A DNA stretch of 32,000 nt, taken from assembly GCF_000009965.1 (NCBI RefSeq), contig NC_006624.1, forward strand, positions 1,320,001 to 1,352,000, read 5' to 3'. Positions 77 to 29,820 of this stretch are shown here, in pieces (position 1 is the stretch's first letter; the number at the start of each line of letters is the position of its first letter). The notes beneath the pieces are model-generated. The model did not search any database. It saw only the letters and a program-made list of their open reading frames with translations, and was not told the origin of the DNA. The position numbers and the translations under genes are program-made. The stretch is from Thermococcus kodakarensis KOD1 (GTDB lineage Archaea > Methanobacteriota_B > Thermococci > Thermococcales > Thermococcaceae).

Positions 77-154
77 GGACCGGTAGCCTAGCCAGGATAG
101 GGCGGCGGCCTCCTAAGCCGCAGGTCCGGGGTTCGAAGCCCCGCCGGTCCGCCA
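77..154 (+). tRNA. tRNA-Arg (anticodon CCT), CCA encoded
   Basis: Hand-folded cloverleaf. Acceptor GGACCGG/CCGGTCC, anticodon stem GCGGC/GCCGC with loop CTCCTAA, T arm CGGGG-TTCGAAG-CCCCG, discriminator G followed by CCA. Confidence 0.92.
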
Positions 155-156
155 TA

Positions 157-397
157 GAAACTTTTCTAATGAAAAGTTTCACCAAAGAGCGAATGTCCTT
201 TTGAGCGCCCTGCTTTTCAGTGATTCTCACAATCAATTTGCAATTCTCAAGGGGTTTGCTCGGAGTATAACGCCCAAAGGGCGTTAAAAAAGAAGAAAAA
301 CCCGCACTTCCCTGCCCATCCATCAAGAGAATCTAACCTTATCAAGCCAATTCTCGGAGACATTCGAGCTTTTGGTGAAGCTTTTCCAAAAAGCTTC
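157..397 (+). repeat. Hairpin-delimited non-coding repeat unit A1
   Basis: Bounded by perfect palindromes at 157-180 (GAAACTTTTC-TAAT-GAAAAGTTTC) and 377-397 (GAAGCTTTT-CCA-AAAAGCTTC). Central GC hairpin at 269-285 (AACGCCC-AAA-GGGCGTT) followed by an A-rich tract. About 85-90% identical by eye to 29324-29560. Confidence 0.9.
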
Positions 398-657
398 AGC
401 GCTGGCGGAAGATTGGTATGCTTTCTTTTTAGATATGCCTGCTTTTGAAGGGTTTACTTCCAATTGGCTGATTCAAAAGGATTTTCTCACCGTATAGTGC
501 CCGAAGGGCACTAAAAAGAAAGTCAAAAATCACAATTAGCGCGGGGATTTTGGAGTTAAACCCGCGCGAGCCTGCCTTCTTGAGAGCATACACTCCCTAA
601 CAGGCGAGATCGAGGAGAAGGGCACACACTTTTGGTGAAGCTTTTTCTAAAAGCTTC
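398..657 (+). repeat. Hairpin-delimited non-coding repeat unit B1
   Basis: Starts AGCGCTGGCGGAA. Central hairpin at 496-512 (AGTGCCC-GAA-GGGCACT) followed by AAAAAGAAAG. Ends in palindrome 637-657 (GAAGCTTTT-TCT-AAAAGCTTC). Homologous to 947-1204 (~70% by eye). Confidence 0.85.
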
Positions 658-946
658 CTGCGCGAAGTTTGATCAAGGTTCGTAGCTCTTTTTCGGAATG
701 CCAATTCACCGTGATTTTCCAACTCAAATGGCTTTTTGAGAGTGAGAACCCTTAATCCACCCTGTCAACTCGTGTTTAACTCTAAATCGGCGCCCTTTGG
801 GCGTCAAAGAAAAGAAAACACCCTCTTCAAGAAGCTTCCTAAAAGGTTCTCACTCAAAAATGAGCACTTGCAGTCTAAAATCCTAAAATAAAACCCTCTT
901 GAAGAAGAGCTACAAACTTTGATGAAACTTTGCCTGGCAAAGTTTC
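658..946 (+). repeat. Hairpin-delimited non-coding repeat unit C1
   Basis: Starts CTGCGCGAAGTTTGATCAAGGTTCGTAGCTC, shared with 29561-29633. Central hairpin at 789-805 (GGCGCCC-TTT-GGGCGTC) followed by an A-rich tract. Ends in palindrome 924-946 (GAAACTTTGC-CTG-GCAAAGTTTC). Confidence 0.8.
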
Positions 947-1204
947 AGCGCCGGCGGAAAAGAGGTATGCGTTTTTAATGAACTAATTTTTGAGTGGGTT
1001 TACTTTCGAGTTGCCAGACTTACAGGATTTTCCCCACAGTATAGTGCTCTTTGAGCGCTAAAAAGAAAGTTCGAAATCACAATTAACGAGAGATTTTTAA
1101 GAACAAACCCACACGCGAACCTGCTTTCTGGGGAGCATACACTCCCGATAAGCAAAGTTCGAGAAGAAGGGCACACTTTTGGTCAAGCTTTTTCCAAAAG
1201 CTTG
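947..1204 (+). repeat. Hairpin-delimited non-coding repeat unit B2
   Basis: Starts AGCGCCGGCGGAA. Central hairpin at 1043-1059 (AGTGCTC-TTT-GAGCGCT) followed by AAAAAGAAAG. Ends in palindrome 1184-1204 (CAAGCTTTT-TCC-AAAAGCTTG). Confidence 0.85.
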
Positions 1205-28429: not shown

Positions 28430-29200
28430 TCAATCCCTCCTTATGAGATTAAATATCGCGAGGGTTGCAAGCAATGCCTCCTCGGTGCGGACCGTTTCAG
28501 TCCGCTGATTTGGAATGGTGTTGAGGATCAGATGGAACTCAAACTTCTCCTCGCCGAGGAGCTCCATCACGCCTTTCCTCGGTGAGCCGAACACGAAACC
28601 GACCTCCCCCTCGAGCGGGGGGATCTCAACCTCTCTTATGTCGCGACCCTTCCTCGAGGTCGCGATGACCAGATCAAGCCCGGCCTTTTTAAGTGTTTTC
28701 GCCAGCGACTTCCTCGTGAGGTGAACCCTGTAGCCCCAGTAGTCCTCCGGTTTTGTCGGGACGACCCTCAGAGGTCTCGTCGAGACGATTTTGAACGTTG
28801 CACGCCCTTCAACGTTCCCTTCAACGACCGCCAGCTCATCGAGGCCGATGTCCGCGTAAGTTCTTTTCCCCCTTCTGAAGGCGAAACCCTCTCGGATTTC
28901 GCCGACCCTTGGCCTTCCCTTGAGTTTGTGGTGCGGCGTCCTCAGCGGCGGTATCACTCCCACGTACTTGAGCTCGGGCATCAGCGGGAACAGCCTCTTC
29001 CTGAGGTACTGGGGGGTCTCCGCGTACTCGAGGACGGTCTTGATGAACTTTCCGTCCCTGCCGCCGGCCCTGTAAATCCAGATGTGCTCAACGCCGAATA
29101 TTGAACAGGCCCTGGCTACCTGTCCGACCTTGTACGTTCTGATCTTTGGGTCGTCGGTCTCTTCGAGGAGCGAATCGGGAATGAAGACGTGCCAGGCCAT
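28430..29200 (-). CDS. SPOUT-superfamily putative RNA methyltransferase (DUF171 / COG2106 type) heading the rpl3 operon
   Basis: [43 protein letters not shown]...VFGSPRKGV...[25 protein letters not shown]. The ATG at 29200 is preferred, because the track start at 29284 lies upstream of and across the TATA box at 29257-29265. The stop is 1 nt from the rpl3 ATG, within AGGAGGGATTGAG. Confidence 0.8.
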
Positions 29201-29256
29201 TTTTCCGTCATCCTTTGATGTGGTAGCTCCAATGCTGAACTGGGGTCTATGGAGAC

Positions 29257-29272
29257 TATTTAAAAGGCTTTC
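29257..29272 (-). promoter_or_regulatory. BRE + TATA (CGAAAGCC-TTTTAAATA on minus strand) for the SPOUT-rpl3 operon
   Basis: The minus strand reads GAAAGCCTTTTAAATAGTC. The TATA centre is ~60 nt upstream of the ATG at 29200. Confidence 0.6.
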
Positions 29273-29323
29273 GAACCTTTCCACCCTCTTTTGGGTTGAG
29301 GAGTGTGAAATTTTTTTGCAAAG

Positions 29324-29560
29324 GAAACTTTGCAGGGCAAAGTTTCATCAAAGAGTGAATGTCCTTTTGAGCGCCCTGCGTTCAGTGATTCTCAATCATT
29401 AATTGGCAATTCTCAAGGGTTTACTCACAATATAACGCCCAAAGGGCGTTAAAAAATAAGAAAACCCGCACTTCTCCGCCCATCTATCAAGAGAATCTAA
29501 CCGTATCAAGCCAATCCTCGGAGACATTCAAACTTTGGTGAAGCTTTTCCCAAAAGCTTC
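29324..29560 (+). repeat. Hairpin-delimited non-coding repeat unit A2 (copy of 157-397)
   Basis: Bounded by palindromes 29324-29346 (GAAACTTTGC-AGG-GCAAAGTTTC) and 29540-29560 (GAAGCTTTT-CCC-AAAAGCTTC). Central hairpin at 29434-29450 is identical to 269-285. Confidence 0.9.
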
Positions 29561-29820
29561 CTGCGCGACGTTGAAGCTTCGCTTCAACGCACGGGACGAT
29601 AGTCCCGTTGAGTTTGATCAAGGTTCGTAGCTCATCCTTAAAAAGCTAGATTTCACGCGATTTTCTTCTTTGGAAAGCCAGTTTGAACATGAAAACACTT
29701 GAAATACCTTAGTTGTGTTGGTTTTAACTCCAAAACCAACGCCCAAAGGGGCGTCAAAAGAAAAATTAAAAAATTCCTGAAAGCATCCGACGAACGGCAA
29801 GAGCGACAAGGGAACCACCC
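29561..29820 (+). repeat. Hairpin-rich non-coding repeat unit C2 (related to 658-946), apparently ending at the ATPase gene
   Basis: Shares CTGCGCGA...AGTTTGATCAAGGTTCGTAGCTC with C1. It has extra perfect hairpins at 29569-29589, 29591-29608 and 29717-29740. The central hairpin at 29739-29754 is followed by an A-rich tract. Confidence 0.75.

What the first reader, a model, noticed from the sequence alone, without database searches (positions are those of the whole stretch)
377..1204. Hairpin stems are preserved by compensatory double substitutions while loops drift
Terminal palindromes occur in four stem versions, each perfectly self-complementary:
- GAAGCTTTT/AAAAGCTTC (377-397, 637-657, 29540-29560)
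- CAAGCTTTT/AAAAGCTTG (1184-1204)
- GAAACTTTGC/GCAAAGTTTC (924-946, 29324-29346)
- GAAACTTTTC/GAAAAGTTTC (157-180)

The loops differ freely (CCA, TCT, CCC, TCC, CTG, AGG, TAAT).

Central hairpins behave the same way: AACGCCC/GGGCGTT (A), AGTGCCC/GGGCACT (B1) and AGTGCTC/GAGCGCT (B2). Between B1 and B2 there is a C:G to T:A double change, and one pair becomes T-G.

Paired changes on both arms imply selection on the folded form (RNA hairpin or DNA cruciform/ssDNA hairpin) or on a dimeric protein site, rather than on the primary sequence.
Basis: seen in the sequence. Interest (0 to 1): 0.66.

Follow-up and report, generated by a model that had tools for sequence, protein, structure and literature searches.

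The report
tRNA-linked palindromic mobile repeats in Thermococcus
The paired hairpin changes are real: they mark the ends of a family of small, apparently mobile repeats that pile up behind tRNA genes in Thermococcus kodakarensis, and the same hairpin-plus-tag module also turns up in DPANN archaeal tRNA introns and in some bacteria.

Summary
All seven terminal hairpins and the three central hairpins sit where stated.

In 88 Thermococcus sites picked from one arm plus its flank only, 70 have a fully complementary partner arm. Random positions give 5 of 1760. At least 13 stem versions exist.

The window is T. kodakarensis KOD1, 1,320,001-1,352,000. Each hairpin belongs to a module: a tag (TTTGRT / AYCAAA) next to a perfect 9-11 bp stem with a 3-4 nt loop. 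Modules bound foldback units of 215-290 nt (A, B, C). The units form co-oriented arrays that start 0-7 nt after the CCA of tRNA genes.

Array content differs between close species and between KOD1 strains, and decayed hairpins occur. A 274-bp KOD1 MITE listed in 2013 probably corresponds to these units.

The exact module also occurs in Micrarchaeota and Aenigmatarchaeota, including inside tRNA introns, and in acetic acid bacteria and Oscillospiraceae. This was unexpected.

Wobble pairs are almost absent, and the terminal stems are predicted to melt at 85 °C.

Best reading: REP/BIME- or MITE-like selfish DNA whose ends must fold as single-stranded hairpins for an enzyme not yet identified. Structured RNA, template-driven palindrome correction and a dimeric protein site remain possible.

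The parts
77..154 (+). tRNA-Arg(CCT), TKt25 of T. kodakarensis KOD1. It anchors the array, which begins 2 nt after its CCA.
157..187 (+). beta-type module H0: hairpin GAAACTTTTC-TAAT-GAAAAGTTTC (157-180) plus 3' tag ACCAAAG
171..386 (+). Unit A1, a foldback rod. Terminal inverted repeats at 171-197 and 359-386; tip hairpin TAACGCCC/GGGCGTTA at 268-286; A-run at 286-300.
371..398 (+). alpha-type module H1: 5' tag TTTGGT plus hairpin (T)GAAGCTTTT-CCA-AAAAGCTTC(A)
398..630 (+). Unit B1. It starts AGCGCTGGCGG. Tip hairpin TAGTGCCC/GGGCACTA at 495-513.
419..419 (-). Published primary transcription start of an orphan small RNA (KOD1 1320419, minus strand). The transcript reads through H1 into the antisense of A1, towards the T-run at 300-286.
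   Evidence: PMC4247193 Table S6; coordinate offset
631..657 (+). alpha module H2: TTTGGT plus GAAGCTTTT-TCT-AAAAGCTTC
658..933 (+). Unit C1, a foldback rod. Inverted repeats at 662-688 and 907-933; tip hairpin GGCGCCC/GGGCGTC at 789-805 (its outermost pair, G.C in the same-strand reading, is not complementary).
918..947 (+). beta module H3: TTTGAT plus (T)GAAACTTTGC-CTG-GCAAAGTTTC(A)
947..1177 (+). Unit B2. Tip hairpin TAGTGCTC/GAGCGCTA at 1042-1060 with one T.G pair. H3 plus B2 (about 918-1175) is absent in another T. kodakarensis strain.
1178..1204 (+). alpha module H4: TTTGGT plus CAAGCTTTT-TCC-AAAAGCTTG. It ends the array and is the breakpoint of an intraspecies rearrangement.
29324..29346 (+). 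beta module H5 of the second array: GAAACTTTGC-AGG-GCAAAGTTTC
29337..29549 (+). Unit A2, 88% identical to A1. Tip hairpin at 29433-29451.
29534..29560 (+). alpha module H6: TTTGGT plus GAAGCTTTT-CCC-AAAAGCTTC
29561..29790 (+). Unit C2, decayed and truncated. Two extra small hairpins are inserted at 29569-29589 and 29591-29608. The tip hairpin at 29738-29755 is imperfect, and there is no right end. A published minus-strand transcription start lies at 29820.

Best explanation
The hairpins are end modules of a family of non-coding, selfish repeats related in design to REP/BIME/REPIN and MITE elements.

**Anatomy (shown).**
- Each module is a short tag (TTTGRT on one strand, AYCAAA on the other) at the foot of a perfect 9-11 bp stem with a 3-4 nt loop.
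- Two inverted modules bound a foldback body of 215-290 nt. The body has its own perfect GC-rich tip hairpin.
- Units sit in co-oriented head-to-tail arrays that start right after the CCA of tRNA genes.
- There are no target-site duplications.
- Turnover between species and strains is fast.
- The module is conserved across the archaeal and bacterial domains.

**Mechanism (inferred).**
- A strand-specific enzyme moves the elements. It reads the tag plus an intrastrand hairpin on single-stranded DNA, as HUH/Y1 enzymes read IS200/IS605 ends and REPs.
- The tRNA 3' end, or an existing module, is the preferred landing site.
- Only copies whose arms still pair can be propagated. Surviving lineages therefore show paired changes, loops are free to drift, and immobile copies decay.
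For: **Module anatomy and arm pairing.**: 70 of 88 anchored sites are perfect, and there are at least 13 stem versions.

**Inverted repeats and foldback bodies.** Units have terminal inverted repeats and fold as rods on both strands (z = -5.0 and -4.5 for A1, -6.7 for C1).

**tRNA linkage.** Arrays begin 0-7 nt after the CCA and are co-oriented with the tRNA at 16 or more tRNA genes.

**Turnover at the orthologous tRNA-Arg site.**
- KOD1 has A-B-C-B.
- T. nautili has one different unit plus a decayed alpha module.
- T. thioreducens and T. thermotolerans have only a hairpin.
- T. barossii has none.

**Strain variation.** H3 plus B2 is present or absent within the species, and a rearrangement breakpoint lies exactly at module H4, with 99.87% identity beyond it. 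Short-read assemblies break at the modules.

**DNA rather than RNA.**
- Wobble pairs are nearly absent.
- There is no strand asymmetry.
- The terminal stems are predicted unfolded at 85 °C as free RNA.
- Modules occur in both orientations within one array.

**Distribution.** The same module occurs in DPANN archaea, acetic acid bacteria and Oscillospiraceae, in REPIN-like inverted pairs.

**Literature.**
- A T. kodakarensis MITE of 274 bp with 14-bp inverted repeats and no direct repeats has been listed (PMC3852290).
- REPs are defined as a tag 0-2 nt 5' of a fully paired 7-20 bp stem with a 2-5 nt loop (PMC6006769).
Against: - No transposase was found. None lies between inverted module pairs.
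- No transposase family appears among the 25 most recurrent Pfam families (of 139 matched) for 148 ORFs within 2 kb of modules in Thermococcus and DPANN loci. A family matched by a single ORF would not be shown.
- The tag is not the GT[AG]G of canonical REPs. RAYT proteins are reported from bacteria only.
- IS200/IS605 elements lack inverted repeats, whereas these units have them.
- No clean insertion with an empty site in an otherwise identical background was seen. The B2 difference could equally be a deletion between ACTTT microhomologies.
- Two published transcription starts lie in the arrays, so an RNA role is not excluded.
- Why the module sequence is identical across domains is unexplained.
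Confidence: 0.55

Rival explanations
1. **Structured RNA.** The arrays are transcribed, either with the tRNA or from internal promoters. The hairpins would then be RNA processing or protection signals, or parts of small RNAs, and selection would act on RNA pairing.
For: - The arrays are strictly co-oriented with a strongly transcribed tRNA gene.
- In DPANN archaea the module lies inside tRNA introns, which are removed at the RNA level.
- dRNA-seq found orphan small-RNA starts at window 419(-) and 29820(-).
- Units fold as rods with z = -5 to -7.
- B2 carries one T.G pair on the + strand.
Against: - There is essentially no G.U in about 650 stem pairs despite at least 13 stem versions, and G:C to C:G swaps occur.
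- G.T and A.C counts in the rods are symmetric.
- The terminal stems have a free energy of about 0 at 85 °C.
- The published starts are on the strand opposite the tRNA.
- No Rfam family matches.
- Content differs between sister species and decayed copies exist, so a conserved host function is unlikely.
- T5 runs 35-45 nt after each module in units B and C would stop archaeal RNA polymerase early (read from the sequence).
Confidence: 0.15
2. **Mutational homogenisation without selection.** Short inverted repeats separated by 3-4 nt are repeatedly made perfect by intrastrand template switching during replication or repair (quasi-palindrome correction). A change in one arm is copied into the other.
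For: - All kinds of changes appear paired, including transversion swaps, and intermediates are very rare.
- Stems extend inward until only the minimal 3-4 nt loop is left (73 of 79).
- The closely spaced tip and junction hairpins are perfect, whereas the long-range pairings in the same units are only about 65-70% paired.
Against: - Decayed and uncorrected modules persist. Examples are the T. nautili alpha remnant and its 1-nt deletion, the extra A in T. thioreducens, the C2 tip, and a recurrent C.C mismatch in three loci.
- The outer stem sequence and the flanking tag are conserved across domains. Correction alone does not explain that.
Confidence: 0.15
3. **Double-stranded binding site.** The palindrome would be the site of a dimeric protein, such as a transposase, a recombinase or a host factor, with the module as crossover or binding site.
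For: - The outer half-site SAARCTTT and the tag are sequence-conserved from bacteria to archaea.
- Alpha modules keep a constant spacing.
- A strain rearrangement breakpoint lies exactly at module H4.
Against: - Several half-site versions coexist in one genome, and each is matched to its partner arm. A single dimer would not favour that.
- The distance between the outer half-sites varies from 5 to 9 nt, chiefly in beta modules.
- Loops of 3-4 nt are shorter than the 6-8 bp spacers of tyrosine-recombinase sites.
- The rearrangement can be explained by homologous recombination between identical 27-30 nt modules.
Confidence: 0.1

Closest known systems
REP / BIME / REPIN elements with RAYT (TnpA-REP) in bacteria
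   Same: - A short tag sits at the foot of a fully paired short hairpin.
- Units occur in alternating orientation, in mosaic clusters and as inverted doublets that form long hairpins.
- The elements are extragenic and have no target duplications.
- Several sequence subfamilies coexist in one genome.
- The elements act as recombination hot spots.
   Different: - The tag is TTTGRT/AYCAAA, not GT[AG]G.
- No RAYT gene was found.
- The element occurs in Archaea.
- Bodies of 215-290 nt with their own conserved tip lie between modules.
- Arrays are attached to tRNA 3' ends.
- The module sequence is shared across domains, whereas REPs are species-specific.
IS200/IS605 ends and their non-autonomous derivatives (PATEs)
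   Same: - Subterminal hairpins are read on single-stranded DNA.
- A short target/cleavage motif lies next to the hairpin. From my own memory, ISDra2 uses TTGAT, which resembles TTTGAT here.
- There are no direct repeats.
- Insertion is strand-specific and would give co-oriented copies.
- The family occurs in both domains.
   Different: - IS200/IS605 elements have no terminal inverted repeats, whereas these units have 14-30 nt repeats.
- No tnpA or tnpB gene was seen next to modules.
- The cleavage sites were not defined.
T. kodakarensis MITE listed by Kamoun et al. 2013 (partner 'ISTko3', family unknown)
   Same: - Same organism.
- 274 bp, about the module-to-module period measured here (256-258 nt gaps plus a module).
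- 14-bp inverted repeats, no direct repeats, 5 copies.
   Different: - No sequence was available to confirm identity.
- That paper does not describe the hairpin modules, the arrays, the tRNA linkage or the cross-domain occurrence.
Integron attC sites and cassette arrays
   Same: - Co-oriented units are separated by imperfectly conserved palindromes whose pairing matters more than their sequence.
- The sites are recombined as folded single strands.
- The array grows from a fixed anchor.
   Different: - There is no integrase and there are no cassette ORFs.
- The stems are perfect 9-11 bp without extrahelical bases or GTTRRRY cores.
Small palindromic invaders: Rickettsia palindromic elements, and mitochondrial hairpin elements or GC clusters
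   Same: - Short hairpin-forming repeats spread into tolerated sites, including genes.
- Stems show compensatory variation.
- No enzyme is known.
   Different: The lineages and sequences are different, and those elements show no tRNA-flank arrays.
Archaeal tRNA introns (bulge-helix-bulge) and the proposal that they transpose
   Same: In Aenigmatarchaeota and Bilamarchaeaceae the module lies within anticodon-loop introns. In Micrarchaeota it lies in D-loop insertions.
   Different: In Thermococcus the elements lie outside the tRNA, after the CCA. No bulge-helix-bulge motif was examined, and bacteria that carry the module have no such splicing.

Membership tests
REP/BIME (REPIN-RAYT) | Conserved tag 0-2 nt 5' of the foot of a fully paired 7-20 bp stem with a 2-5 nt loop | tested here: met
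   TTTGRT lies directly 5' of 9-11 bp perfect stems with 3-4 nt loops. Definition taken from PMC6006769.
REP/BIME (REPIN-RAYT) | The tag is GT[AG]G (or CGTC) | tested here: not met
   The tag is TTTGGT or TTTGAT in all lineages.
REP/BIME (REPIN-RAYT) | A cognate single-copy Y1 HUH gene (RAYT) flanked by the repeats | tested here: inconclusive
   No such gene lies between module pairs. No transposase family appears among the 25 most recurrent Pfam families of 148 module-proximal ORFs. Whole genomes could not be scanned.
REP/BIME (REPIN-RAYT) | Mosaic clusters with units in alternating orientation, and inverted doublets | tested here: met
   Window arrays, tandem and inverted modules in L048, L110 and L031, and L049.
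Classical MITE (derivative of a DDE insertion sequence) | Terminal inverted repeats, small size, no ORF, multiple copies | tested here: met
   14-30 nt inverted repeats, 215-290 nt, no plausible ORF, and many copies per genome.
Classical MITE (derivative of a DDE insertion sequence) | Target-site duplication, and an autonomous partner with the same inverted repeats | tested here: not met
   No direct repeats flank the arrays or units (sequence). No partner was found in the fetched loci. Kamoun et al. also give DR = 0 and a partner of unknown family.
IS200/IS605-derived element (PATE) | Subterminal hairpins, no inverted repeats, no direct repeats, insertion 3' of a fixed tetra- or pentanucleotide | tested here: inconclusive
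   Hairpins are present and direct repeats are absent. Inverted repeats are present, which does not fit. The insertion point could not be fixed: the boundary between KOD1 strains is ACAAAC|TTT.
Integron attC array | An IntI integrase, attI, and attC with R''/L''-L'/R' cores and extrahelical bases | tested here: not met
   The stems are perfect, no GTTRRRY cores are present and there are no cassette ORFs.
Curated RNA family (Rfam 15) | A match at or near the gathering score | tested here: not met
   Only tRNAs matched in the window, even at E up to 10 over 1-1300. Twenty loci from all lineages also gave only tRNAs plus unrelated RNAs.
Structured RNA under pairing selection | G.U pairs tolerated, and tolerated on one strand only | tested here: not met
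   1 G.T and 1 A.C among the anchored stems. The rods show 218 G.T against 194 A.C, which is not significant.

The most novel reading that the evidence does not exclude
The tag-plus-hairpin module is a previously unrecognised mobile element family that spans both prokaryotic domains.
- It colonises the discarded parts of tRNA transcription units: 3' flanks in Thermococcus, and anticodon-loop and D-loop introns in DPANN archaea.
- In acetic acid bacteria and Oscillospiraceae it colonises intergenic repeats.
- An enzyme class not yet linked to it, or a host process, moves it.

If this is right, it would tie the spread of non-canonical archaeal tRNA introns to a mobile palindrome.
Probability: 0.3. 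Interest if true: 0.85.

Novelty: new variant of a known kind. Interest (0 to 1): 0.62.

Why it matters
- **Archaeal REP-like system.** REP/BIME-type palindromic repeats and their enzymes are regarded as bacterial. Thermococcales are not listed among archaea with characterised MITEs (PMC10969869). A tRNA-anchored archaeal system with a cross-domain module would widen that picture.
- **Small-RNA annotation.** At least two of the species-specific, AU-rich orphan small RNAs of T. kodakarensis start inside these arrays. Others cluster in similar spacing and may do the same.
- **Strain instability.** The arrays are a source of chromosome rearrangement in a widely used model strain.
- **tRNA introns.** The elements offer a concrete handle on how insertions enter archaeal tRNA genes.
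- **Method.** The case is a reminder that strong covariation in a repeat family does not by itself indicate a functional RNA.

Tried and rejected
- **Rfam.** Gathering thresholds on the window, E up to 10 on 1-1300, and 25 loci from all lineages gave only tRNAs and unrelated RNAs.
- **Plasmids and phages.** BLAST of the array against both collections found no match. The viral-contig scan found only 2 hits.
- **Transposase hunt.** ORFs between inverted module pairs are ordinary genes or spurious. The 25 most recurrent Pfam families of 148 module-proximal ORFs are all ordinary housekeeping genes. A 440-aa inserted ORF in three species is MatE-like.
- **Literature.** Searching for the sequence strings returned only primers. 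Searches for Thermococcales MITEs, casposons or Komagataeibacter repeats found nothing specific.
- **Strand test.** The G.T against A.C count in the long-range pairings was inconclusive. Some units are strongly skewed, but in both directions, and my automatic orientation made errors.
- **Ideas dropped after inspection:**
  - CRISPR or casposon arrays: no target duplication, no cas1.
  - C/D box RNAs.
  - Intrinsic terminators: no T-run follows the hairpin on either strand.
  - dif/Xer sites: wrong geometry.
  - parS, hix and IS91-target resemblances: recalled from memory only, not testable here.
  - tRNA-like hairpin-ACCA minihelix: the tag is often AUCA.
Full report
**Where the window comes from.** The window is Thermococcus kodakarensis KOD1, NC_006624.1 positions 1,320,001-1,352,000.
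- The 253-aa protein at 1275-2033 occurs on a contig of 2,088,737 bp.
- Published gene coordinates match with an offset of 1,320,000. TK1492 is at 1321275-1322036, TKt25 at 1320077-1320154 and TK1544 at 1349822-1351198.

**Observation.** All seven terminal palindromes and the three central hairpins are at the stated coordinates with the stated stems and loops. The B1/B2 comparison is as described: one C:G to T:A double change and one T.G pair.

**Anatomy.** Region 157-1204 reads hairpin-A1-hairpin-B1-hairpin-C1-hairpin-B2-hairpin and starts 2 nt after the CCA of tRNA-Arg(CCT). Region 29324-29790 reads hairpin-A2-hairpin-C2, with C2 decayed.
- Units A and C carry terminal inverted repeats of about 27 nt. 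A has GAAAAGYTTCAYCAAAGAGYGAATGTC and C has GCRAAGTTTSATCAARGTTYGTAGCTC.
- A and C fold as rods on either strand. For A1, z = -5.0 on the plus strand and -4.5 on the minus strand. For C1, z = -6.7. B folds less well, at z = -2.9.
- The central hairpin is the tip of the rod. It is flanked by a conserved GGGTTTAC...GTAAACCC pair.
- Each junction hairpin carries a tag: TTTGGT or TTTGAT on its 5' side, and/or ACCAAA or ATCAAA on its 3' side.
- There are two module subfamilies. Alpha is TTTGGT-SAAGCTTTT..AAAAGCTTS. Beta is TTTGAT-SAAACTTTKC..GMAAAGTTTS.
- A simple unit has polarity: beta hairpin-AYCAAAG-body-CTTTTGGT-alpha hairpin.

**Is the arm pairing more than chance?** I anchored on the right arm plus its tag only, across 35 Thermococcus loci.
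- 70 of 88 sites have all eight outer pairs complementary. Random left positions give 5 of 1760.
- Positions 1 and 4 covary almost perfectly (Fisher p = 3.5e-19 and 1e-20).
- The stem nearly always runs inward until a 3-4 nt loop remains.
- At least 13 stem versions and at least 10 tip-hairpin versions exist, all perfectly paired.
- The few exceptions are C.C (five cases, three of them one recurrent variant), one A.C and one G.T.

**Genomic behaviour in Thermococcus.** About 27 of these are Thermococcus or Thermococcaceae loci.
- The matched hairpin typically lies 213-281 nt downstream of a tRNA gene on the same strand.
- At 16 or more tRNA genes a hairpin starts 0-7 nt after the CCA and is followed by a unit in the same orientation.
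- Other tRNAs, including four in the window, have no such element.

The orthologous tRNA-Arg(CCT) site differs widely between species:
- KOD1 has A-B-C-B.
- T. nautili and a metagenomic relative have one unit of another family, followed by a decayed alpha module.
- T. cleftensis has a truncated unit.
- T. thioreducens and T. thermotolerans have only a hairpin, with the further stem version GAAACTTTTGT/ACAAAAGTT. It is imperfect in T. thioreducens.
- T. barossii has nothing beyond GAAACT.

Variation also occurs within T. kodakarensis.
- Two sequencing runs carry TK1492 joined, exactly at module H4, to a C-type unit behind a tRNA-Met. The sequence downstream is 99.87% identical to KOD1.
- Relative to that junction, the window has H3 plus B2 in addition. 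The boundary is ACAAAC|TTT.
- Short-read assemblies of the species end at the modules.
- No target-site duplications are visible.

Together these features indicate multicopy, rapidly turning-over, recombinogenic selfish DNA.

**Published data.**
- Kamoun et al. 2013 list a T. kodakarensis MITE of 274 bp with 5 copies, 14-bp inverted repeats and no direct repeats. Its partner, 'ISTko3', is an insertion sequence of unknown family (PMC3852290). The size equals the module-to-module period here. No sequence was available to prove identity.
- Jäger et al. 2014 list orphan small-RNA transcription starts at 1320419(-) and 1349820(-) (PMC4247193 Table S6).
  - These are window positions 419 and 29820 on the minus strand, both inside or at the edge of the arrays and antisense to the tRNA orientation.
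  - Other species-specific, AU-rich orphan starts in that table cluster at spacings that suggest further arrays. I did not check this.
- A 2024 review of prokaryotic MITEs names no Thermococcales element.

**The unexpected part.** The same 24 specified bases also occur in unrelated lineages:
- many times in Komagataeibacter, Novacetimonas and Acetobacter
- in several Oscillospiraceae and other Clostridia genomes
- in Micrarchaeota, Altiarchaeota, Aenigmatarchaeota and Bilamarchaeaceae
- once in a Methanosarcinales genome

My own estimate of chance matches is about 0.02 for uniform composition.

The bacterial contigs are truly bacterial: they carry a bacterial RNase P RNA, a fluoride riboswitch, LigD and glgCD.
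- In K. swingsii the module sits in a repeat of about 150 nt, next to a terminator-like hairpin.
- In an Oscillospiraceae genome a foldback element of about 300 nt has TTTTGGT-hairpin modules on the left and hairpin-ATCAAAA modules on the right.

Micrarchaeota show the same beta-to-alpha mini-units and all four G/C by A/G stem combinations, perfectly paired.

Modules also lie inside tRNA genes.
- In an Aenigmatarchaeota tRNA the module lies within a 50-nt anticodon-loop insertion. In a Bilamarchaeaceae tRNA it lies within a 58-nt one. The Rfam tRNA model spans both.
- In Micrarchaeota, modules interrupt D-loops.

No Rfam family covers the module in any lineage. I have no explanation for the sequence identity across domains.

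**RNA, DNA or protein site?**
- Against RNA:
  - Wobble pairs are almost absent, and G:C to C:G swaps occur.
  - G.T (218) and A.C (194) counts in the rods are symmetric. The data are noisy and some of my orientation calls were wrong.
  - The terminal stems have a predicted free energy of about 0 at 85 °C, and the tip hairpins only -0.3 to -2.4 kcal/mol.
  - Modules occur in both orientations in one array.
- Against a duplex-binding dimer:
  - The distance between the conserved outer half-sites varies from 5 to 9 nt.
  - Several half-site versions coexist, each matched to its own partner.
- Templated palindrome correction would explain the paired transversions and the minimal loops. It would not explain the conserved tag, the conserved outer stem or the persistence of decayed copies.

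**Interpretation.**
- Best supported: the hairpins are end modules of a REP/BIME- or MITE-like element family. Its propagation requires an intrastrand hairpin plus tag, most simply on single-stranded DNA read by a strand-specific enzyme.
- Propagation-level selection would then give paired arm changes, free loops and decay of dead copies.
- Inferred, not shown: co-oriented head-to-tail arrays and the absence of target duplications fit HUH-type mechanisms.
- Inferred, not shown: the tRNA 3' end may attract insertion because its stem-NCCA resembles hairpin-ACCA, or because the non-template strand of a heavily transcribed gene is exposed.
- Missing: the enzyme is not identified.

**Verdict.** The element type is a new variant of a known kind. 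The cross-domain module and the link to tRNA introns make it worth following up.

Noticed in passing
window 1163-1204; L001 9886-9930; L002 5704-5748: Two T. kodakarensis sequencing runs (ERR16012705, ERR6384085) carry TK1492 joined to a different upstream region: uracil phosphoribosyltransferase, then tRNA-Thr, tRNA-Asn and tRNA-Met, then a C-type unit. The breakpoint is exactly at module H4. This is a chromosomal rearrangement between arrays within the species.
   Followed up: partly
window 29569-29608; also L022, L116, L124, L100, L108 just after alpha modules: A second kind of small inserted hairpin has a TTC/TTT loop and its own compensatory stem versions: GTTGAAGC/GCTTCAAC, GTTGAGGC/GCCTCAAC and GTGGGGC/GCCCCAC. 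It is followed by ACGGGAC-GATA-GTCCCGT. It is present in C2 but absent from C1.
   Followed up: no
KOD1 genome, outside the window (PMC4247193 Table S6): Many orphan, AU-rich, species-specific small-RNA transcription starts cluster a few hundred nt apart. Examples are 1127031/1127285/1127691, 1040925-1041382, and 1311406/1311594 next to TKt24. They may lie in further repeat arrays.
   Followed up: no
L135 3732-3893; L137, L138, L140, L141, upstream of the TK1492 orthologue: A small conserved ORF (MIEDALLLYLESMHREK..., about 50 aa) with its own ribosome-binding site lies between the tRNA-Arg flank and the TK1492 orthologue in T. nautili, T. cleftensis, T. thioreducens and T. thermotolerans. I did not see it in KOD1, where the array lies.
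   Followed up: no
L138, L139, L141 3228-4550 (minus strand): A 440-aa MatE-like membrane protein gene is inserted between the TK1492 and FUN14 orthologues in T. thioreducens, T. barossii and T. thermotolerans. It overlaps the 3' end of the phosphoesterase gene by 28 nt. It is absent in KOD1, T. nautili and T. cleftensis.
   Followed up: partly
L082 1870-1965: In an Altiarchaeota genome, an 18-nt copy of the 5' part of tRNA-Gly (GTTGCGTCCGTCGTTCAG) lies just upstream of the intact tRNA-Gly and is followed by an alpha module. It looks like a D-loop insertion followed by a partial duplication.
   Followed up: no
L131 9050-9140 (IMG/VR contig, 33% GC): A low-GC viral contig carries two alpha modules in direct tandem (GAAGCTTTTcctAAAAGCTTC-TTTTGGT-GAAGCTTTTcctAAAAGCTTC), and a beta-like hairpin about 330 nt away.
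   Followed up: no
window 28430-29284: The longest ORF for TK1543 (284 aa, GTG start at 29284) extends 84 nt beyond the published annotation, which ends at 1349200. It reaches to within 40 nt of the second array. TK1543 is among the most highly read genes in the published transcriptome.
   Followed up: no
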